From the NCBI GenBank assembly GCA_009914755.4, contig CP068257.2, positions 30,336,001 through 30,400,000 of the forward strand: a stretch of DNA of 64,000 nucleotides. Direction: 5' to 3'. Numbering within the stretch: the stretch's first letter is position 1; each line of letters begins with the position of its first letter. Source of the DNA: the human T2T-CHM13v2.0 reference genome, Homo sapiens. Both the position numbers and the translations under genes were made by a program. Below are positions 1-64,000 of the stretch, in pieces. Under the pieces are notes generated by a model. The model had not been told where the DNA came from. It made no database searches and saw only the letters and a list, made by a program, of their open reading frames with translations.

Positions 1-443
1 CATTTTCTGTTTATTGTCTTTCATTCCTACAAGCCTGTCAATAGTGCATCTCTTTGGCTCACCTATGAGCAACAAGAAAAGACCACAGGTTGTCTTGGGA
101 AACACGGAATGGGGAGACCCAAACTGGTTCTTGCTGTATCATGTACCAGTTGCTCCCCTTGGACAGAGAAATTAAATTCTTTGGCTATGTGGTGTGTATT
201 TTTTAAAGAGAGAGAGGGGGAAATGGGATTTTCCACACCCCTCCTGTCTGAAGGGAGGTGGGGCTGAAACCAAGCTCCACGAATCATTGAATCGGAACCC
301 TGCCCAGAGACCTAGAGAAGAGATCACCCCAGCAGTGACTCGGGATGGGCAGGCAAGGTGGCGAGTCCCCTGTGATGGTGGCTTTCACTGGTGTCTGCGT
401 TCAGCCTGTAACATGCGTGCATTCTTTCCCAAATGTCTCCCAG

Positions 444-579
444 GTGCCATCAGTTTCCTGCGCTCTCTCCTGGAACCGGATCCTGTGAAGAGGCCAAATA
501 TTCAGCAGGCACTGGCGAATCGCTGGCTTAATGAGAATTACACGGGCAAAGTGCCCTGTAATGTCACCTATCCCAACAG
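444..579 (+). CDS. HUNK: HUNK coding exon (end of kinase domain: ...GAISFLRSLLEPDPVKRPNIQQALANRWLNENYTGKVPCNVTYPNR); probably exon 6 of 11
   Basis: Acceptor cag at 441-443 after a polypyrimidine tract; donor GTAATT at 580. Peptide matches my recollection of human HUNK. Frame continues exactly into the next exon (the R codon is split AG|G). Confidence 0.85.
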
Positions 580-899
580 GTAATTTCGTGCACCCAGAGG
601 AACTCCTCGGGAGAGACGGGGCCTGTCCTACTAGCCCTGAGCAGTTCCGGACAGAAAGCTGTCCGTGATTGAAGGAAAAGCCGCGCTCTCTCTTGGCTAT
701 CTCCCCTTCCCCCTAACACCCACACCCACACATCCACAAGAGGAAGCGTAGACAGGGCCACCATGTGCTGTTATGCCGTGTGCCCTGCAGGGGCACCTGG
801 AGGAGAGGTGAGTGGAGGCTGATATCCAGGCTTTGAGGGTCTGTATCTTCCCAGGGGGTGCCTTTTTCTAGTTCACACAAAGGGACCTTTGAGACTAGC

Positions 900-5790: not shown

Positions 5791-6732
5791 TGTGTCTGTT
5801 TATTTGGGAAGCAGTGAGCATCTAGACACTGAACCCGGCTGCCGGTTCTTAATTCTAGGGCTGTCACTTCCTGCCTGTGTGACCCTGGGCAAGGTACTGC
5901 ATTGCTGTGGGCTTTGGTTTTGTTATCTGTAAAGTTGGGGTCATGATAGTACCTACTCATAGGACTATCAGGATGACTAAGTGAATTTACATCCTCTCTT
6001 CCCCACTGGGAGGGTGAACAAATGAATGCGTAGATGAATGAAGCCCGGTATTTCTTTGCCATTTTATCCCAAGGAGTTTATCTTCACAGTCCCCTTGTGA
6101 AGTAGCTTTAACTCTCTTCCTCTGAGAGGACCCCACTTTGCCGCTGAGCCCTGAACCCCCCATGTATGAACTTATGAACTCTTTCTGTTCCCCTAAACAT
6201 GATCTGGCTAGTTCCTGAATACCTTCCTTTTCCACCCCAAAATCCAGAGTCAGAGTGGCTTCTGTCCATGACAACCAATACATTTTAAGGAAAGAATGTG
6301 TGATCATAAGGAAATCTGGGGGACAGTTGGGAGATTTGAGTATAATCTGGGTATTAGATGCTATTAAGTGATTATTAAAATTTTATTGGGTATGTTGATG
6401 GTATTGCGGTTCTGTGGGGGACATCTTTGGTTTTTGAAGGTGCACACTCAAGGGTTAAGGGGTAAAATGTCATGATGTTTGTAATTTAAAATACTTCAGC
6501 AAAAAAAAAATGCAAGGATGGCAAAGTGATCACTGGTATATCTAGATGATGGTATACATAAAGTGATTGTACTATTCCCTCCGCTTTTCTGAATACGAGA
6601 ACATTTTCAAAATAAAAACTCAAGTCAGTGAATGAATGAGTGAATGAATGAAGCTGATTGTGCCCAGGGGGTCTGTGTGGGGCTCTCCGTGAAGTGCAGG
6701 GGTGACTGGTCCTCTCTCTCTGCACCTCGCAG

Positions 6733-6895
6733 GATTTCTCTGGAAGATCTGAGCCCGAGCGTCGTGCTGCACATGACCGAGAAGCTGGGTTACAAGAACA
6801 GCGACGTGATCAACACTGTGCTCTCCAACCGCGCCTGCCACATCCTGGCCATCTACTTCCTCTTAAACAAGAAACTGGAGCGCTATTTGTCAGGG
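6733..6895 (+). CDS. HUNK: HUNK coding exon (ISLEDLSPSVVLHMTEKLGYKNSDVINTVLSNRACHILAIYFLLNKKLERYLSG)
   Basis: Acceptor ...ctcgcag|G at 6731-6732; donor GTAAGT at 6896. The first base completes the AGG (Arg) codon started in the previous exon. Continuous frame. Confidence 0.88.
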
Positions 6896-8623
6896 GTAAG
6901 TGCGACCCTAGAGGCGATCGTCTCTGCTGTCTGTGGAAAAAAGAGCTCCTACACCCAAAGTGCTTCTCAGTTGCTGACACTTGATCCAAGCTGCTAATTT
7001 AATCTAATGTGAGGCTGAGTTTTCTGAATGTGGGATAAAGTCGTAGCTAAACCTGCTTCTCAGGGAGTGCCTTTTATCTGCAATGTTTTTCAAATACTCT
7101 CCCACCGAGTTAAGCCCTGGGCAGAATTGGGAGGGGTTCAAGCCTCTTTTTCCTTCAACAGCATCTCTGTTGTCTTTTTTTTTTTTGTTCTGCTGCCTCT
7201 TAGGTCTTTGGGTTCCCCATGTTGGAGGCATTGGAGGGTTCTCTGGTCCTAAAACTCGGGTAGCAGTGCCTCCCGGGCATTTGTCTCTGAACTATGGTAT
7301 TATATATGAGAAAGCCACTATTTAGGTTTAACTTCTCCAGAAAATAAGAACAAAATTGGACTTGCCTGGCCTGACTCTGGCACCTTCCCTCAGTCTGAGT
7401 GTCAGAAAGTCCAAGTGTCTGGTGTCACCCGCGAGGTACCTTTGGGGTTTCCACAGCGTGGGGTGGATGGTGGGACCCTGACACCCTGTCCCCTTCATCA
7501 TTTTTGCCACAAGCAGTTTCTGTGTGCCTGAGTAAGAGAATTTATGTGCCTTAAATTGTCTCTCTCCAAATGGACAATGGCTTAAAAAGAATTCTGCAAA
7601 TTGGATCCAAGACAATATGGAGTCTGCATACAGCAGCTCATGCTTTTACTCAGAATGGTGGGTGCTGACCAGCTCTAACAGGGAGTCAGCCAAAGAAATT
7701 CAGAATTGCCAGGAAGCCTATCTGAAATTTGACTGAGTGTTCACTTTCACGAGGGACCACCTTCACCCTGGGCCTGTTGCACCTTGACATCTGATGGCGT
7801 GGAGTTGTCACTGTTAGGAAGACATTTACCATCCAGAACATGTGCTATTGAAGTCACGTGATAGCCCAATATGTCACCAAATTTCACTAGACAATAGGCT
7901 TAGAAACCTTTTTGAGGTTTCTATATGAGAGCTAAAGATGAAAATCTACCTGCAGTTGGGGAAATGATATTCTCGCTGGCATGGTGGAGATGACCAAATT
8001 AATACCCGGAGGACAAGGTAGTCAGTGTGTGTCTTTTGTTAGCAAATGGATTTGGGAGCCGTCTAGAAAACATTGCTGAACAGATGAAGATGCTCCACGG
8101 GAGGTTGGTTAAACATTTGGATGAAAGTACAGATGTTTCTAAGCTGATTTAGCTCAGAATATTGGCTAGATTGTGCTTCCATTGTGCTTCCGCAGGAAAT
8201 TATCCACAGAACTCCTTTGTTTTTGTTTTTGTTTTTTTGTGAACCACCAAAGGAAAGATCTACATGAGAAGAAGTACTCTCAACAATAAAGAGATTTAAC
8301 AATGTTTTATGGGGGAAAAAACGTGGTCTGTATGATGGGGTGGCACCTCTCTGATGGGGACAGAGTCAACGCTTTGAGTTAGATTTCACAGATGGTGTCA
8401 CTGTGGCTGCCTTGCTCATAGAAAGCTACTGGAGAAGAGATGTCAAATCCAGAAAGACAGGACTTTCAACATATAGTATACTATTTATTTTATTTTATTA
8501 TATGATGAGGAGAGATTCAGAAAATCTCTTGTATCACACAGCAGTTCTCTGTTCTCTCATCACAAGGAACATAAAAGACATACTGGACTTGAAGCTGTTT
8601 CTCTCTCATTTCTCTTGTTTTAA

Positions 8624-22384: not shown

Positions 22385-23165
<781 letters not shown>

Positions 23166-30398: not shown

Positions 30399-30707
30399 GG
30401 GTCCAGAATTTTAAGCAACCAAAAGCAGGGACGATGTTAGGCTGGGGCCATGAGGCAAATTGGAATCCAGGAGACGTCCTGTCGCCAGCCCTCTGTCCCT
30501 CCATCCTAGGAAGACTGCCCGACCTCTGTGGGGAGAGTGACATGCTGCTGGTGACTTTTGCAAAGTAGCCAAGGCTGTTTGCCGGTTGGTTTCTTCTGAC
30601 CTTGGCGGGAACTGTCTCAGTTAAGCTGGAGGTCACAGCAGGCAGGAGAAGGGCCGTGAGCACTGTCCGGACGTCCTCATGATTGTTTATGCTTTCTTGG
30701 TGTGCAG

Positions 30708-31366
30708 ATTCCTTTGGCTGCCGCAATATTTTCCGCAAAACCTCAGATTCCAATTGTGTGGCTTCTTCTTCCATGGAGTTCATCCCCGTGCCACCGCCCA
30801 GGACCCCGAGGATTGTGAAGAAACCGGAGCCCCATCAGCCAGGGCCCGGAAGCACTGGCATCCCCCACAAGGAAGACCCCCTGATGCTGGACATGGTGCG
30901 CTCCTTCGAGTCTGTGGATCGCGACGACCACGTAGAAGTGCTGTCTCCCTCTCATCACTACAGGATTCTGAACTCCCCGGTCAGCTTGGCTCGCAGAAAT
31001 TCCAGCGAGAGGACGCTGTCCCCGGGTCTGCCATCCGGAAGCATGTCGCCTCTCCATACTCCTTTGCATCCAACTCTGGTCTCTTTTGCTCACGAAGATA
31101 AGAACAGCCCCCCAAAAGAGGAGGGCCTGTGTTGCCCACCTCCGGTTCCCAGCAATGGCCCCATGCAGCCTCTGGGGAGCCCCAATTGTGTGAAAAGCCG
31201 AGGCCGGTTCCCTATGATGGGCATCGGACAGATGTTAAGGAAGCGCCATCAGAGTCTGCAGCCATCTGCAGATAGGCCCCTGGAGGCCAGCCTGCCCCCA
31301 CTGCAGCCCCTAGCCCCTGTGAACCTTGCCTTTGACATGGCCGATGGGGTCAAGACCCAGTGCTAA
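30708..31366 (+). CDS. HUNK: HUNK terminal coding exon, coding part (DSFGCRNIFRKTSDSNCVASSSMEFIPVPPPRTPRIVKKPEPHQPG...LAPVNLAFDMADGVKTQC*), stop TAA 31364-31366
   Basis: Acceptor ctttcttggtgtgcag| at 30706-30707. The long ORF 30683-31366 in the track shares the frame. C-terminal tail rich in S/P with no further splice donor. Ends with the recalled HUNK C-terminus. Confidence 0.9.
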
Positions 31367-36949: not shown

Positions 36950-37252
36950 TTTGTTTTTGCTTTTGTTTTGAGATGGAGTCTCCCTCTGTCACCCAGGCTG
37001 GAATGCAGTGGCGCAATCTCGGTTCACTGCAACCTCCACCTCCTGGGTTCAAGCGATTCTTGTGCCTCAGCCTCCTGAGTAGCTGAGACTATAGGCACAT
37101 GCCACCATGCCCAGCTAATGTTTGTATTTTTAGTAGAGACGAGGGTTTCACCGTGTTGGCCAGGCCGGTCTTGGACTCCTGACCTCAAGTGATATGCCCG
37201 CCTTGGACTCCCAAAGTTCCAGGATTACAGGCATGAGCCACCGTGCCTGGCC
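36950..37252 (-). mobile_element. Alu
   Basis: Canonical Alu, reverse orientation. Confidence 0.9.
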
Positions 37253-37379
37253 GAGATGCCTACCATTTAAAGGTACCCCAAAACTGGACTAGCCTTTTCC
37301 CATTGTCACACAATTATAGCACCTCTTAGTAAAGAGTTACTTTTTTAAAATAAAAGAATTAGCATTGGTAAATGTTAAT

Positions 37380-38100
<721 letters not shown>

Positions 38101-55527: not shown

Positions 55528-56477
55528 AAGGTTGAACATCTTATGTTTTTTAGCCATTTGCAATTCTTCCAGAGCCTTCGACCCACATCTGTTTTCTTAA
55601 CTCTCTCCTAGAATCATTTTAGAATTATGGAGAATTATTAAGGGAAAGAGAAGAAGTGCACAGTAGGGGATGAAGGGGGAGAGGTGAAACCAGGTGGGGA
55701 GCACTGTTCTCAAGCCCTCCTCCAGCTCCCTCTGACTTTTCTTTCCCCAGGGCTAGATTCCCTCCACCCCACTCCTATTTTTCCTCGAAGGCCATGTCAA
55801 GTCTCTTAGGATAAGTCCCTCTTCTCCTCTAATAACTTACTACTCTTGATCTTAGCCGAAACGCTGAGAAGTGATTCTTATAATAATTTGTTTTGCTTTT
55901 AATCATTCCAGGTAAAGGGAGAGGACCTTTAGTCTTGGATCCTGACCTCCTTTTAGGTGAAACTTCCTCTGAGGACAAAGTATAGTGGTCCCAGTGTCCC
56001 TGTCTCATTTAAAAAGTAAAATACTGGTAGTATAGTTTGGGATAAGCAAGCTAAGTAGTCAGATTCTGGCATTCTGAATCTTCCTTTTGCTTAGGAATTG
56101 CTAAGGCCGAGGGTTGTCTCTGGCTCAACATTTGCCTGAACGTTCAGTCTCCTTTCGGGTCTGTGAGGGAGCAAATGCTACTGCGGGAGCCTCAGGGAGC
56201 CCTGCCCACACCTTCCTCTTCCCTTCCTTAAAGGTCACGATAGCTGGGTTCATCCCGTAGTTGGATGTCAAGTTTACTTTTAAAATAGATTGTAACACTT
56301 AATTCTTGCTGTCATCCTGTAGGAAATACCACGATCCAGTGGTAGCCTCCAAGTATATCACCCTGAAAACAATTCTGGTGGTCTCAAAACAGAAAGCACA
56401 GAGGCCCAATTAAGATGCTCAAATCTCATGGTTTATTAAGTCAACGTGAAACACACAAGAAGAAGCAAGGGGATAAG

Positions 56478-57560
56478 GATGGGTTAGGTAGTGTATTAGT
56501 CAGGGTTCTCTAGAGGGACAGAATTAATAGGATATATATATATATGTATATATATGTATGTGTGTATTTACATATATTTATGTGTGTTGTGGGATCTTGT
56601 GATTGTGTGAGTTAATACTATTTAATATACTCCCCTTTATACATATATACGTATATATACATATATACGTATATATGTATATACGTATATATACATATAT
56701 ACGTATATATGTATATACGTATATACATATATACATATACGTATATACATATACGTATATATGTATAAAGGGGAGTATATTATATGTATATATATGTATA
56801 TATATGTATATATATGTATATATATGTATATATGTATATATATGTATATATGTATATATATGTATATATGTATATATATGTATATATGTATATATATGTA
56901 TATATACGTATATATATGTATATATGTATATATATGTATATATACGTATATATATGTATATATACGTATATATATGTATATATATGTATATATATGTATA
57001 TATATGTATATATATGTATATATATGTATATATATGTATATATATGTATATATATGTATATATATGTATATATATGTATATATATGTATATATATGTATA
57101 AAGGGGAGTATATTATATATATATACACACACACATATATATGTGTATATATACGTATAAAGGGGAGTACATTAAATAGTATTAACTCACACAATCACAA
57201 GGTCCCACAATAGGCCATCTGCAAGCTGAGGAGCAAGGAAGCCAGTCTGAGTTCCAAAGCTGAAGAACTTGGAGTCTGATGTTTGAGGGCAGGAAGCATC
57301 CAACACAGGAGAAAGATGGAGGCTGGGAGGCTAAGCCAGTCTAGTCTTTTCACATTCTTCTGCCTGCTTAATATCCTGGCCATGCGGGCAGCTGATTAGA
57401 TGGTGCCTACCCAGATTGAGGGTGGGTCTGCCTTTCCAGTCCACTGACTCAAATGTTAATCTTCTTTGGCAGCACCTTCACAGACACACCCAAGATCAAT
57501 ACTTTGCATCCTTCAGTCCAATCAAGTTGACACTCAGTATTAACCATCACAGGTAGCCAC
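56478..57560 (+). mobile_element. MaLR-type LTR (same family as 22385) whose internal (TA)n microsatellite is expanded into a roughly 620-bp palindromic block
   Basis: 5' part gtgtattagtcagggttctctagagggacagaattaatagg (56478-56520). 3' part ...ctgcaagctgaggagcaaggaagccagtctgag...caagttgacactcagtattaaccatcacag (57210-57560). Confidence 0.65.
56590..57203. repeat. AT-rich palindromic block: (TATATG/TATACG)n flanked by 54-bp inverted repeats
   Basis: Left arm gtgggatcttgtgattgtgtgagttaatactatttaatatactcccctttatac (56590-56644) is the reverse complement of the right arm gtataaaggggagtacattaaatagtattaactcacacaatcacaaggtcccac (57150-57203), with 2 mismatches. Internal copies of gtataaaggggagtatatta lie at 56764 and 57095. 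Confidence 0.85.
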
Positions 57561-57766
57561 ACTGAGTATAGTGTGAAGGTGGGGTGGAAGACCACACACC
57601 TCAGTCCGGAGTTACATGATGTTCATGCATCCTATTTCTCTGCTGTCTGCATCTACCTCCCCCAAGGAATATTGAACAGCGGCTCAGCAGGCAGAGGTGC
57701 CTGCAATCAACACTTGCTTCTTTTATTGGAGAGATGCAGGAGAAATTACACCTGGTCACAGCAGCA

Positions 57767-58530
57767 CAGTAGTTCCCCCGTTATCTGAGGTTTTCCTTTT
57801 TGCAGTTCCATTTACCCATGGTCTGAAAATATTGAATGGAAATGAAATATTGGTGGAAAATTCCAGAAATAAACAATATATAAGTTTTCAATCATGTACC
57901 ATTCTGATTAGTGTGATGAAATCTTGCACTGTTCCACTCCATCCCACCTGAGATGTGAATCCTTCCTTTGTCCAGCGTCTCCACCCTGTAGATGCTTAGA
58001 AGTCATCTCGATGATCAGATCCACTGAGGTATTGCAGTACTTGCCTTCAGATCACCTTTATTTGACTTCATAATGCCCCAAAGCTTAAGAGTAGTGATGC
58101 TGGCAGTTCAGATATGCCAAAGAGAAGCCGTAAAATGTTTGCTATAAGTGAAAAGGTGAAAGTTCTTGACTTAATAAGAAAAAGATCATTGACTGAGGTT
58201 GCTAAGACCTATGGTAAAGATGAATCTTCTATCCATGAAATTGTGAAGAAAGAAAAAGAAGTGTGTGCTAGTTTTGCTGTTTCAGCTTAAACTGCAAAAG
58301 TTATGGCCACAGTGCATGATGACAGAGCTCAGTTAAGATGGAAAATATATTAAATTTGTGGGTGGAAGATATGAACACACACGTATCTTGACTGATGGTG
58401 ACCAGGTTCAGTACTATCTGTGGTTTAGGGATCCACTGGGGCCTGGGAACATATCTCTTGTGGATAAAGGGGTACTCCTGTAGTTTGCCAACTAGTTCAA
58501 TGAACAGTTATGGATCTTATCTGTATTCCT
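57767..58530 (+). mobile_element. Tigger-family (pogo superfamily) DNA transposon remnant with decayed transposase N-terminus
   Basis: Tigger-like 5' TIR cagtagttcccccgttatctgaggttttcc. The short ORF at 58114-58290 (MPKRSRKMFAISEKVKVLDLIRKRSLTEVAKTYGKDESSIHEIVKKEKEV...) has the CENP-B/pogo-type HTH pattern. Downstream sequence continues the transposase with frameshifts and stops. Confidence 0.7.
58114..58290 (+). pseudogene. Pogo/Tigger transposase N-terminal HTH fragment (58 codons, truncated by stop)
   Basis: KRK-x-LTL/SEK-x-x-I/L...VAK-x-YG-x-x-x-S-x-I...KEK motif pattern. The reading frame is lost after codon 58. Confidence 0.6.
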
Positions 58531-62591: not shown

Positions 62592-64000
62592 CCTCCATCC
62601 AGGTCTATTCCACCCAGGTCTATTCCATCCAGGTCCATTCCATCGAGATCCACTCCATCCAGATCCACTCCATCCAGGTCCTCTCCATTCGGGTCCACTC
62701 CATCCAGGTCCACTGTATCCAGGTCCACTCCATCCAGGTCCACTGTATCCAGGTCCACTCCATCCAAGTGAATTCCATCCAGGTCCACTCCATCCAAGTG
62801 AACTCCATCCAGGTGCGCTCCATCCAGGTGCACTCCATCCGGATTCACTCCATCCAGATCCACTCTATCTGGGTCCACTCCATCTGAGTCCACTCCATCC
62901 AGGTCCAATCCATCCAGATCCACTTCATCCAAGTCCACTCCATCCAGATCCACTCCATCCAGGTCCACTCCATCCAGGTGCACTCCATCCAGTCCACTCC
63001 AACCAGATCCACTCCATCCGGGTCCACTCCATCCGGATCCACTCCATCCAGATCCACTTCATCCATATCCACTCCATCCAGATCCACTCCATCCAGGTCC
63101 ACTGTAACCAGGTCCACTCCATCCAGGTCCACTGTATCCAGGTCCTCTCCATCCAAGTGAACTCCATCCAGGTGTACTCCATCCAGGTCCACTGTATCCA
63201 GGTCCACTCCATCCAAGTGAACTCCATCCAGGTGTGCTCCATCCAGGTGCACTCCATCCGGATTCACTCCATCCAGATCCACTCCATCCACATCCACTCC
63301 ATCCGTGTCCACTCCATCTGGATCCACTCCATCTGGTCCACTCCATCTGGGCCCACTCCATCCGGGTCCACTCCATCTGGATCCACTCCATCCAGGTCCA
63401 CTCCATCCAGATCTACTTCACCCAGATTCACTCCATCTGGGTCCATTCCACCCAGATCCACTCCATCCTGGCCCACTCTATCCAGGCCCACTCTATCCAG
63501 ATCCACTCCATCCAGATCCACTCCATCCAGGCCCACTCCATCCAGGTCCACTCCATCCTGGTCCACTCCATCCAGGTCCACTCCATATGGGTCCGCTCCA
63601 TCTGGGTCTACACCATCCAGGTCTGCTCCATCCAGATCCACTGTATCCAGGTCCGCTCCATCCAGATCCACTCCATCCAAATCCACTCCATCCAGGTGCA
63701 CTCCATCCAGATCCACTTCATCTAGATCCACTCCATCCAGGTGCACTCCATCCAGATCCACTTCATCCAGATCCACTGTATCCAGGTCCACTCCATCTGG
63801 GTCCACTCCATCCAGGTGCACTCTATCCAGGTGCACTCCATCCAGGTGCAATCCATCCAGGTGCGCTCCACCCAGGTGCACTCCATCCGGATTCACTCCA
63901 CCTGGTCCACTCCATCTGAGCCCACTCCATCCTGGTTCACTCCATCCAGGTCCGCTCCATCCAGATCCACTGTATCCAGGTCCACTCCAACCAGGTGAAC
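62592..64000. repeat. 15-bp-unit minisatellite (TCCATCCAGGTCCAC)n, about 94 units, runs off the window end
   Basis: Uninterrupted tandem 15-mers with point variants (ggtgcac, gatccac, gattcac, tgtatcc...). Creates long ORFs in all six frames with 5-aa periodicity. Confidence 0.95.

What the first reader, a model, noticed from the sequence alone, without database searches (positions are those of the whole stretch)
56590..57203. Roughly 620-bp AT-rich palindrome with 54-bp near-perfect inverted arms, derived from an LTR's internal (TA)n
54-bp arms with only 2 mismatches enclose about 500 bp of (TATATG/TATACG)n. The two halves read in opposite polarity and carry internal partial copies of the arm (gtataaaggggagtatatta at 56764 and 57095). 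The structure looks like an inverted duplication of part of a MaLR LTR, followed by microsatellite expansion. Large AT-rich palindromes (PATRR-like) extrude cruciforms. Such sequences are hotspots for double-strand breaks, deletions and translocations, and are often mis-assembled or length-polymorphic. The high arm identity implies a recent origin or ongoing homogenisation.
Basis: seen in the sequence. Interest (0 to 1): 0.6.

Follow-up and report, generated by a model that had tools for sequence, protein, structure and literature searches.

The report
Inverted duplication inside an LTR microsatellite
A 56-base piece of an old retroviral LTR was copied backwards next to the LTR's own TA-rich microsatellite, which then grew to about 500 bases; this is an ordinary, probably length-variable repeat and not a PATRR-type chromosome-breaking palindrome.

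Summary
The arms are real: 56587-56642 pairs with 57155-57210 (56 nt, 2 mismatches), and their 30-mer core occurs nowhere else in the window. The 20-mer copies are also real (56763, 57096).

The 512 nt between the arms are not a palindrome beyond their composition. Self-complementarity is 75%, against 77.7±0.8% for unit-shuffled controls. Folding energy is -118 against -112±3 kcal/mol for shuffles. There is no polarity switch at the centre.

The whole structure lies inside one solo LTR (56492-57551) with a GGTAG target-site duplication. Its relatives flank RT/integrase/dUTPase genes, so the family is ERV-L type, not strictly MaLR. In 27 paralogous copies the right arm is native LTR sequence. 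None of the 26 informative copies has an inverted arm, and both window arms share variants private to this locus.

Removing 56783-57174, which ends in a copy of the 20-mer, restores a 232-nt quasi-palindrome with 93% arm identity. The likely history is a fold-back template switch in the self-complementary TA tract, then tandem duplication and microsatellite growth.

Extruding the whole as a cruciform would cost about +289 kcal/mol; a true palindrome of this composition costs about +10-13. The PATRR criteria fail. Polymorphism could not be tested. This is an ordinary feature of low interest.

The parts
56487..56491 (.). Left copy of the 5-bp target-site duplication GGTAG
   Evidence: Read directly. 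The same pentamer follows the LTR at 57552-57556.
56492..57551 (-). Solo LTR of an ERV-L-type family. On + it reads TGTATTAG...ACCATCACA; the retroviral sense strand is the window minus strand. It is 1060 bp, of which about 620 bp is the AT-rich complex.
   Evidence: 84-93% identity to 27 LTR copies. Paralogs flank RT, integrase and dUTPase ORFs on the opposite strand. A consensus recalled from memory matches both ends.
56534..56586 (+). TA/TG-rich tract B, the remnant or extension of the LTR's native short TA tract. It holds the longest pure (TA)n run of the region, 14 nt.
   Evidence: Paralogs have only about 10-18 nt here (GATGTATATATGAAGGGG).
56587..56642 (-). Left arm: an inverted copy of native LTR sequence, including an inverted copy of the 20-mer at 56623-56642. 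It carries one derived substitution at 56595.
56643..56762 (.). Segment D: ACGT-centred units of mixed polarity, with 2.4 perfect copies of a 34-mer. It forms the core of the inner quasi-palindrome.
56623..56782 (.). Inner 160-nt quasi-palindrome: inverted 20-mer, then D, then forward 20-mer.
   Evidence: 91.5% identity to its own reverse complement with 8 gap columns. Folding of 56587-56818 gives -62 against -32.5±2.9 kcal/mol for shuffles. Estimated cruciform cost +43 kcal/mol.
56654..56717 (.). Longest perfect hairpin: 30-bp stem with a 4-nt loop. This is the only piece with a low estimated cruciform cost.
   Evidence: cost +11 kcal/mol.
56763..56782 (+). Forward 20-mer copy 1 (GTATAAAGGGGAGTATATTA)
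56783..57095 (+). Segment F: a single-polarity array of TATATATG and TATATATATG units. It contains 5.4 perfect 18-mers (56809-56905) and 13.5 perfect 10-mers (56966-57100).
   Evidence: Folding of the interior is no better than shuffles.
57096..57115 (+). Forward 20-mer copy 2
57116..57154 (+). Segment H: a short TA/CA/TG tract
57155..57210 (+). Right arm: native LTR sequence, including 20-mer copy 3. It carries one derived substitution at 57170.
   Evidence: Collinear with all paralogs.
56783..57174 (+). 392-nt block (F, 20-mer 2, H, 20-mer 3). It ends with a repeat of the 20-mer that precedes it, which is the signature of tandem duplication. Removing it restores a 232-nt quasi-palindrome.
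   Evidence: 116-nt arms at 93.2% identity.
57552..57556 (.). Right copy of the target-site duplication GGTAG

Best explanation
This is a mutational by-product inside a solo ERV-L-type LTR, about 25 kb downstream of the last HUNK exon in a primate genome, most likely human.

The LTR family has a short native TA tract (about 10-18 nt) followed by ...AAGGGGAGTTTATTAAG...CACAAGGTCCCACAATAGG. The proposed history has three steps:
1. A nascent strand ending in the self-complementary TA tract folded back, or switched to the complementary strand. It copied about 56 nt of adjacent LTR plus some tract in reverse complement, then returned to its template. This is a short-range template switch of the '1-4-3-2' type. 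It produced a quasi-palindrome of about 230 nt.
2. Slippage between TATAT microhomologies duplicated [TA tract + 20-mer] in tandem. This split the right arm and left three forward copies of the 20-mer.
3. The 8-10-nt units expanded, most recently as runs of 13.5 and 5.4 perfect copies.

Today the locus is a 56-bp inverted repeat with a 512-bp AT-rich spacer. The spacer is self-complementary only because TA-rich repeats are. The most likely structures are local: a 30-bp-stem hairpin and a 160-nt quasi-palindrome in segment D. The most likely behaviour is ordinary microsatellite or minisatellite length variation, with no cellular function.

Shown: the anatomy, the native versus copied arm, the solo-LTR context, and the compositional nature of the interior. 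Inferred: the template-switch mechanism, the order of events, and length polymorphism.
For: - Arms and 20-mer copies are far beyond chance.
- A GGTAG duplication flanks one LTR at 56492-57551.
- The right arm is native in 27 paralogs.
- No inverted arm exists in the 26 informative paralogs.
- Both arms share the private variants ATTAAATAGTATTAAC and CACACAATCAC.
- The two arm mismatches are one derived change in each arm.
- Deleting 56783-57174, which ends in a 20-mer copy, restores a 232-nt quasi-palindrome with 93% arm identity.
- Perfect 10-, 18- and 34-mer runs show recent slippage.
- The interior's symmetry and folding match shuffled controls.
- Paralog L024 has independently grown a 19-copy array of nested-palindrome 33-mers, plus a direct duplication of the segment 3' of the same TA tract. 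Paralog L011 has a TA/TG microsatellite at the same site.
- Short template switches that create inverted repeats are documented in human and ape genomes (PMC5453318, PMC7954356).
Against: - No orthologous or allelic sequence could be obtained, so the ancestral state is inferred from paralogs only.
- The junction at 56586/56587 shows at most a TGTG-type microhomology, which is ambiguous in a TG-rich tract.
- D is itself a tandem array of a palindromic 34-mer, so its symmetry may come partly from later duplication and not from the original fold-back.
- The order of inverted and tandem duplications is not resolved.
- A break-repair route would leave the same product.
Confidence: 0.75

Rival explanations
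1. A PATRR-like, cruciform-extruding AT-rich palindrome that acts as a hotspot for double-strand breaks, deletions and translocations.
For: - Length of 624 bp and 82% A+T.
- Whole-region DNA folding of -175 against -106 kcal/mol for shuffles.
- An inner 160-nt quasi-palindrome and a perfect 30-bp-stem hairpin.
- Cruciform cost per bp is lower than for unique DNA.
Against: - The extra folding energy comes almost entirely from the 56-nt arms: the interior alone has z -1.9.
- There is no central symmetry and the arms are 512 nt apart.
- Cost of extruding the whole is +289 kcal/mol with 53% of duplex energy retained. A true palindrome of this composition costs +10-13 and retains 98%.
- A+T is below the >90% of PATRR11 and PATRR22 (PMC4940405).
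- A 9-bp spacer plus 4 mismatches abolishes PATRR22 extrusion and instability (PMC1851657).
- Inverted Alus with a 52-bp spacer no longer stall eukaryotic forks (PMC7999016).
- An ordinary inverted Alu pair in the same window folds more strongly: -292 against -120.
Confidence: 0.08
2. The same product arose by break repair and not by replication. A resected 3' end in the TA tract snapped back on itself, was extended, and was then rejoined (a templated inverted insertion at a double-strand break).
For: - Fold-back synthesis at breaks makes short templated inverted duplications in yeast (PMC11724301, PMC7467729).
- The TA tract is self-complementary and could prime a snap-back.
Against: - Reported events of this kind are mostly about 5-34 bp (PMC11724301), whereas this copy is at least 56-116 nt.
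- Nothing in the sequence distinguishes this route from a replicative switch.
Confidence: 0.2
3. Assembly or cloning artefact: a chimeric fold-back read or a mis-joined microsatellite.
For: - AT-rich repeats and palindromes are error-prone in assembly.
- No independent contig spanning the structure was found.
Against: - Fold-back artefacts give perfect, symmetric palindromes. Here the arms differ at 2-3 sites, each arm carrying its own derived change.
- The structure is asymmetric.
- It is embedded in an otherwise intact LTR with a target-site duplication.
- The right flank at 57393-58065 is 100% identical in an independent contig.
Confidence: 0.04
4. A separate element: a second LTR fragment inserted head-to-head, or a MITE-like DNA transposon with 56-bp terminal inverted repeats.
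For: Terminal inverted repeats around an AT-rich core look superficially like a MITE.
Against: - The arms are 96% identical and share private variants, whereas paralogs are 84-93% identical.
- The right arm is collinear with the host LTR.
- No target-site duplication flanks the arms...ATGTGTG|TTGTGGG and CCCACAA|TAGGCC.
- The arm 30-mer is absent from three public collections.
Confidence: 0.02
5. The hairpins in segment D are precursors of microsatellite-derived miRNAs of the mir-297 / mir-466 / mir-1277 type.
For: Sub-threshold Rfam matches to several TA/TG-rich miRNA families, best 52 bits. Template switching can create miRNA hairpins (PMC10710096).
Against: - All scores are about half of the gathering thresholds (75-119 bits).
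- Hits fall on both strands and in many overlapping registers, as expected from composition alone.
- Nothing reaches gathering in the whole-window scan.
- There is no expression evidence.
Confidence: 0.02

Closest known systems
PATRRs (palindromic AT-rich repeats at 11q23, 22q11, 17q11, 8q24)
   Same: Several hundred bp, AT-rich, with less AT-rich sequence at the outer ends. Some capacity for intrastrand pairing.
   Different: PATRRs are nearly perfect palindromes without a spacer and have more than 90% A+T (PMC4940405). Here only 56 nt at each end are symmetric, 512 nt lie between them, A+T is 82%, and the centre is a same-polarity repeat.
Short-range template-switch mutations (four-point model; Ripley-type quasi-palindrome events)
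   Same: A nearby segment is copied in reverse complement, which creates an inverted repeat in one step. The source and the copy were originally within about 100-230 nt (PMC5453318).
   Different: The copied segment (at least 56-116 nt) is longer than typical reported events. Later tandem duplication and repeat growth have overwritten the junctions. No outgroup is available to polarise the event.
Compound TA-rich microsatellites and minisatellites seeded by transposable-element sequence
   Same: A short TA tract native to the LTR has expanded into 8-10-nt unit arrays with long perfect runs. Two paralogous LTR copies expanded at the same site.
   Different: This one also carries an inverted copy of flanking unique LTR sequence and two extra forward copies of a 20-mer.
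Expanded (TA)n / (AT)n fragile sequences such as Flex1 in FRA16D (from general knowledge)
   Same: TA-rich sequence able to form hairpins.
   Different: Those are long uninterrupted (TA)n runs. Here the longest pure run is 14 nt, and G or C interrupts every 8-10 nt.
Closely spaced inverted Alu pairs
   Same: Inverted repeats separated by a few hundred bp that can form long-range hairpins in single-stranded DNA.
   Different: Alu arms are about 290 nt. The pair at 36963-37857 in this window gains about 172 kcal/mol over shuffles, against about 70 here. The present arms are five times shorter.

Membership tests
PATRR | Several hundred bp in length | tested here: met
   624 bp from 56587 to 57210.
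PATRR | Very high A+T, above 90% for PATRR11 and PATRR22 (PMC4940405) | tested here: not met
   81.7% for the whole and 85.2% for the interior.
PATRR | Nearly perfect palindrome with central symmetry and no spacer (PMC4940405, PMC1851657) | tested here: not met
   Ungapped self-complementarity is 58%, falling to 0-8% at 56691-56768. The interior does not exceed shuffled controls. Cruciform cost is +289 against +10-13 kcal/mol for a true palindrome.
PATRR | Lies at breakpoints of constitutional translocations and has size-polymorphic alleles | not testable with these tools
   No human population or breakpoint data are available here. No orthologous or allelic contig was retrieved.
ERV-L-type LTR (HERV-L / MLT2-like), solo copy | Homology to LTRs that flank a gag-pro-pol internal region with dUTPase after the integrase | tested here: met
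   84-93% identity to LTRs in L001-L027. L005 encodes RVT_1 and rve+dUTPase on the strand opposite to my LTR orientation.
ERV-L-type LTR (HERV-L / MLT2-like), solo copy | TG...CA termini and a short target-site duplication with no internal region | tested here: met
   TGTATTAG...ATCACA at 56492-57551, flanked by GGTAG on both sides.
ERV-L-type LTR (HERV-L / MLT2-like), solo copy | Match to the curated Dfam/Repbase consensus (MLT2A1, MLT2A2 or another) | not testable with these tools
   No repeat library is available. The subfamily name is therefore not asserted. The tRNA-Leu-like primer-binding site TGGTACCAGGAGTGG next to the LTR in paralogs was recognised from memory only.
   LTRs of the same family flank RT, integrase and dUTPase. 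Similarity to an MLT1-like consensus recalled from memory is partial: 71-90% over three segments.
Template-switch inverted repeat (four-point model, 1-4-3-2 type) | A novel segment that is the exact reverse complement of nearby sequence | tested here: met
   The left arm is the reverse complement of the right arm, including variants private to this locus. After removing the 392-nt duplication block, source and copy abut in a 232-nt quasi-palindrome.
Template-switch inverted repeat (four-point model, 1-4-3-2 type) | An ancestral or outgroup sequence lacks the repeat | tested here: inconclusive
   Only paralogs could be compared, and none of the 26 informative copies has the repeat. No orthologue was obtained.
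Rfam TA/TG-rich miRNA families (mir-297, mir-466, mir-1277, mir-3149, mir-5014) | Score at or above the family gathering threshold | tested here: not met
   Best score is 52 bits against thresholds of 75-119, with hits on both strands and in many registers. Nothing in this region reaches gathering.
Long uninterrupted (TA)n fragile repeat | A pure (TA)n run of tens of units | tested here: not met
   The longest pure run is 14 nt, or 7 units.

The most novel reading that the evidence does not exclude
The short TA tract of this ERV-L LTR family may be a recurrent seed for fold-back events that build self-complementary AT-rich arrays. Three of 28 sampled copies are expanded at the same site. Two of them (this locus and L024) carry inverted motifs plus a direct duplication of the segment just 3' of the tract. 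If that holds across the thousands of genomic copies, the family would be a dispersed source of quasi-palindromic AT-rich minisatellites, some of which might mature into truly unstable palindromes. This locus itself could then be a structurally polymorphic site in human populations.
Probability: 0.2. Interest if true: 0.4.

Novelty: new member of a known kind. Interest (0 to 1): 0.15.

Why it matters
It matters little in itself. The locus is a clear example of how a self-complementary TA tract inside a transposable element can produce an inverted duplication, tandem duplications and a compound microsatellite. Such loci are hard to assemble and genotype.

The analysis also shows that an apparent 'large AT-rich palindrome' can be a compositional illusion. 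TA-rich repeats always look about 75-80% self-complementary, so candidate PATRR-like sites need shuffled controls and a test of central symmetry before they are called fragile.

If the locus proved to be structurally polymorphic, it would be a minor intergenic structural-variation site downstream of HUNK.

Tried and rejected
- **Orthologous or allelic copies.** Exact arm 30-mer scans of genome contigs, metagenome contigs and viral contigs found nothing. A left-flank 32-mer in genome contigs also found nothing. The right-flank 33-mer returned only paralogous LTRs.
- **Exact-protein look-ups.** Four window ORFs spanning or flanking the structure were not on record.
- **Protein search with eight concatenated flank ORFs.** This gave one contig, L028. 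It is chimeric: identical to the window only from 57393 onward. It is therefore uninformative about the palindrome.
- **Third protein search.** Not spent, because host DNA is sparse in that collection.
- **MITE or second-LTR hypothesis.** Rejected, because the arms share private variants and there is no target-site duplication around them.
- **miRNA reading.** Rejected, because scores are about half the thresholds and hits fall on both strands.
- **Whole-region folding z-score (-19).** Rejected as evidence for a large palindrome, because the interior alone has z -1.9.
- **MLT1 and AluY consensus sequences.** The family assignment rests on the retrieved paralogs.

Full report
**Observation**

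The sequence at 56000-57800 contains two inverted arms, 56587-56642 and 57155-57210. They are 56 nt long with two mismatches (56595 and 56627), or 63 nt with a third mismatch. A 30-mer from the arm occurs exactly twice in the 64-kb window, once on each strand, and never in 100 dinucleotide shuffles.

The 20-mer GTATAAAGGGGAGTATATTA occurs four times: inverted inside the left arm, forward at 56763 and 57096, and forward with one mismatch at the start of the right arm. Tandem Repeats Finder reports an array of 8-10-nt units over 56643-57100.

**Is it a 620-bp palindrome?**

It is not.
- In the register set by the arms, complementarity is 96% over the arms. It falls to 0-8% at 56691-56768 and is 73-81% elsewhere, which is the level any TA-rich repeat gives.
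- The 512-nt interior is 75% identical to its own reverse complement. The same interior with its units shuffled gives 77.7±0.8%.
- Folded as single-stranded DNA, the interior reaches -118.1 kcal/mol, against -111.8±3.4 for dinucleotide shuffles (z -1.9).
- The striking value for the whole region (-175.1 against -105.6) therefore comes from pairing of the 56-nt arms.
- The interior has 55 G and 21 C. The C-type units sit at 56627-56746, mixed with G-type units around ACGT centres. 56783-57100 has a single polarity. There are no two halves of opposite polarity, and the geometric centre (56898/9) lies within a same-polarity array.

Real extra symmetry exists only in an inner 160-nt quasi-palindrome at 56623-56782. 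It consists of the inverted 20-mer, segment D and the forward 20-mer, at 91.5% identity with 8 gap columns (folding z -10). Within it there is a perfect 30-bp stem with a 4-nt loop at 56654-56717.

**Context**

The window is Alu-rich (one Alu also scores as Metazoa_SRP). It carries the 3' exons of HUNK on the + strand. These are recognisable in the ORFs at 194-583, 6644-6997 and 30683-31366 and were confirmed by a protein search. That search returned one 100%-identical sequence and rodent and snake proteins named HUNK. The feature lies about 25 kb downstream of the HUNK stop codon, in primate and most likely human DNA.

**Host element**

A 33-mer just right of the right arm retrieved 27 contigs from metagenome assemblies, probably host contamination. 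They are paralogous copies at 84-93% identity, not the same locus. Their common sequence reads TGTATTAGTCAGGGTTCTCTAGAGGGACAGAACTAATAGGATAGATGTATATATGAAGGGGAGTTTATTAAGGAGTATTGACTCACACGATCACAAGGTGAAGTCCCACAATAGGCC.... Three conclusions follow:
- The right arm is native LTR sequence.
- The native TA tract is only about 10-18 nt.
- The left arm is the odd one out.

Several contigs continue into an internal region of about 5.4 kb. Its ORFs lie on the strand opposite to my LTR orientation and contain reverse transcriptase and integrase followed by dUTPase. That is the ERV-L arrangement as I know it from the literature. The sequence next to the LTR, TGGTACCAGGAGTGG, looks like a tRNA-Leu primer-binding site, which I recognise from memory only. 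MLT2A1 and MLT2A2 are the HERV-L LTR families, each with more than 3000 human copies (PMC8559712), but I could not check the subfamily name without a repeat library. MaLR elements are non-autonomous, so 'MaLR' is a near miss.

In the window the LTR runs from 56492 to 57551 and is flanked by GGTAG on both sides. It is a solo LTR with an intact target-site duplication, and the whole AT-rich complex arose inside it.

**Origin of the left arm**

None of the 26 informative paralogs carries an inverted copy of its arm. Both window arms share variants that no paralog has, namely ATTAAATAGTATTAAC with an extra AAT, and CACACAATCAC. The left arm was therefore copied from this locus.

Compared with the paralogs, the mismatch at 56595 is a derived change in the left arm. 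The mismatch at 57170 is a derived change in the right arm; the left arm and both internal 20-mers keep the ancestral T. One change per 56-nt arm compares with 7.2% divergence of this LTR from the family consensus. The duplication is younger than the LTR but not demonstrably recent. Two events give a very wide confidence interval, roughly 1-50 Myr under usual primate rates by my own estimate.

**Reconstruction**

The block 56783-57174 (392 nt) ends with a copy of the 20-mer that immediately precedes it, which is the signature of tandem duplication. Removing it joins 20-mer copy 1 to the rest of the right arm. The result is a 232-nt quasi-palindrome with 116-nt arms at 93.2% identity, in which the outer ~73 nt of each arm differ by a single mismatch.

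The simplest history has three steps:
1. A fold-back or inter-strand template switch started in the self-complementary TA tract. It copied the adjacent LTR segment in reverse complement and then returned. This is the '1-4-3-2' class of short template-switch events described for human and ape genomes (PMC5453318, PMC7954356).
2. Slippage at TATAT microhomology duplicated [tract + 20-mer] in tandem.
3. The 8-10-nt units expanded, leaving 13.5 perfect 10-mers, 5.4 perfect 18-mers and 2.4 perfect 34-mers.

The mechanism and the order of steps are inferred. A snap-back at a resected break (PMC11724301, PMC7467729) would leave the same product.

There is some support for recurrence. Paralog L024 has, at the same site, 19 copies of a 33-nt unit built from nested palindromes, plus a direct duplication of the segment 3' of the tract. 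Paralog L011 has a TA/TG microsatellite there.

**Physical behaviour**

I estimated the cost of converting duplex to two hairpins, using ViennaRNA with DNA parameters.

| Segment | Cost (kcal/mol) | Duplex energy retained |
|---|---|---|
| Whole 624 bp | +289 | 53% |
| Inner 160 bp | +43 | 73% |
| 64-bp core | +11 | 81% |
| Synthetic perfect palindromes of the same halves | +10 to +13 | 98% |

PATRRs are near-perfect and spacerless, with more than 90% A+T (PMC4940405). A 9-bp central spacer with four mismatches already abolishes PATRR22 extrusion and instability (PMC1851657). In eukaryotic cells, inverted Alus stall forks with a 12-bp spacer but not with a 52-bp spacer (PMC7999016).

An ordinary inverted Alu pair in this same window (36963-37857, 316-nt spacer) folds at -292 against -120 kcal/mol. 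That is a larger long-range gain than the finding shows. The longest pure (TA)n run is 14 nt, so the locus is not of the long-(TA)n fragile type either. According to the review PMC7999016, the human genome holds about 180,000 near-perfect palindromes longer than 40 bp, so the 64-160-bp core is unexceptional.

**Other readings**

An Rfam scan at a permissive threshold gives many hits to TA/TG-rich miRNA families. They fall on both strands at about half the gathering scores, and nothing in this region reaches gathering. These hits are compositional.

An assembly artefact is unlikely. The arms carry independent derived changes, the structure is asymmetric, and it sits in an intact LTR. However, no independent contig spans it.

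**What could not be done**

All attempts to fetch the orthologous or allelic locus failed or returned paralogs or a chimera. Length polymorphism, instability and the date of the event remain untested.

**Verdict**

The 'large PATRR-like palindrome and hotspot' part is not. This is an ordinary member of a known kind of sequence and is of low interest.

Noticed in passing
window 194-583, 6644-6997, 30683-31366 (+): Coding exons of the kinase HUNK, including the last exon, whose stop codon ends at 31366. A protein search returned a 100%-identical sequence and proteins named HUNK in rodents and a snake. The palindrome is intergenic, about 25 kb downstream.
   Followed up: partly
window 62593-63996 (runs off the window end): A large minisatellite with about 94 copies of the 15-nt unit CTCCATCCAGGTCCA at 81% matches. 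It has a strong negative GC skew (-0.39) and produces long spurious ORFs in several frames.
   Followed up: no
window 36963-37252 and 37569-37857: An inverted Alu pair with a 316-nt spacer. As single-stranded DNA it folds at -292 kcal/mol against -120 for shuffles. This long-range hairpin is stronger than the one in the finding.
   Followed up: partly
L024 916-1529 and 1525-1600: A paralogous LTR copy carries, at the same TA tract, 19 copies of a 33-nt unit made of nested palindromes (CTCATATGAG, GAGATCTATAGATCTC). It also has a direct duplication of TGAGTTTATTAAGTATTAA. This is an independent complex expansion at the same LTR site.
   Followed up: partly
L011 380-430: Another paralog of the same LTR subfamily has a (TA)n(TG)n microsatellite at the same site and appears to lack the first ~40 nt of the LTR.
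   Followed up: no
L028 (whole contig) against window 57249-58065: This metagenome contig is 100% identical to the window from 57393 to 58065. Before that point it has a diverged LTR (34 differences in 57249-57392) and a different left flank, so it is probably a chimeric assembly through a conserved LTR segment.
   Followed up: yes
L005, L006, L012, L016, L017 (about 6.2-6.4 kb contigs): Near-full-length ERV-L-like proviruses (gag-like ORF, RT, integrase plus dUTPase) assembled from metagenome samples with LTR sequence at both contig ends. They are presumably host DNA contamination collapsed across copies.
   Followed up: partly
It is interrupted by an Alu at 22742-23017 and followed by a (TTTA)n tract.
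   Followed up: no
window 57393-57403: TGATTAGATGG within the LTR resembles, from memory, the DUX4-type homeobox site described for HERV-L LTRs. This would fit the ERV-L assignment but was not tested.
   Followed up: no
window 56630-57160, both strands: Dozens of sub-threshold Rfam matches to TA/TG-rich miRNA families (mir-297, mir-466, mir-1277, mir-3149, mir-5014). The best is 52 bits against gathering scores of 75-119, which looks compositional.
   Followed up: yes
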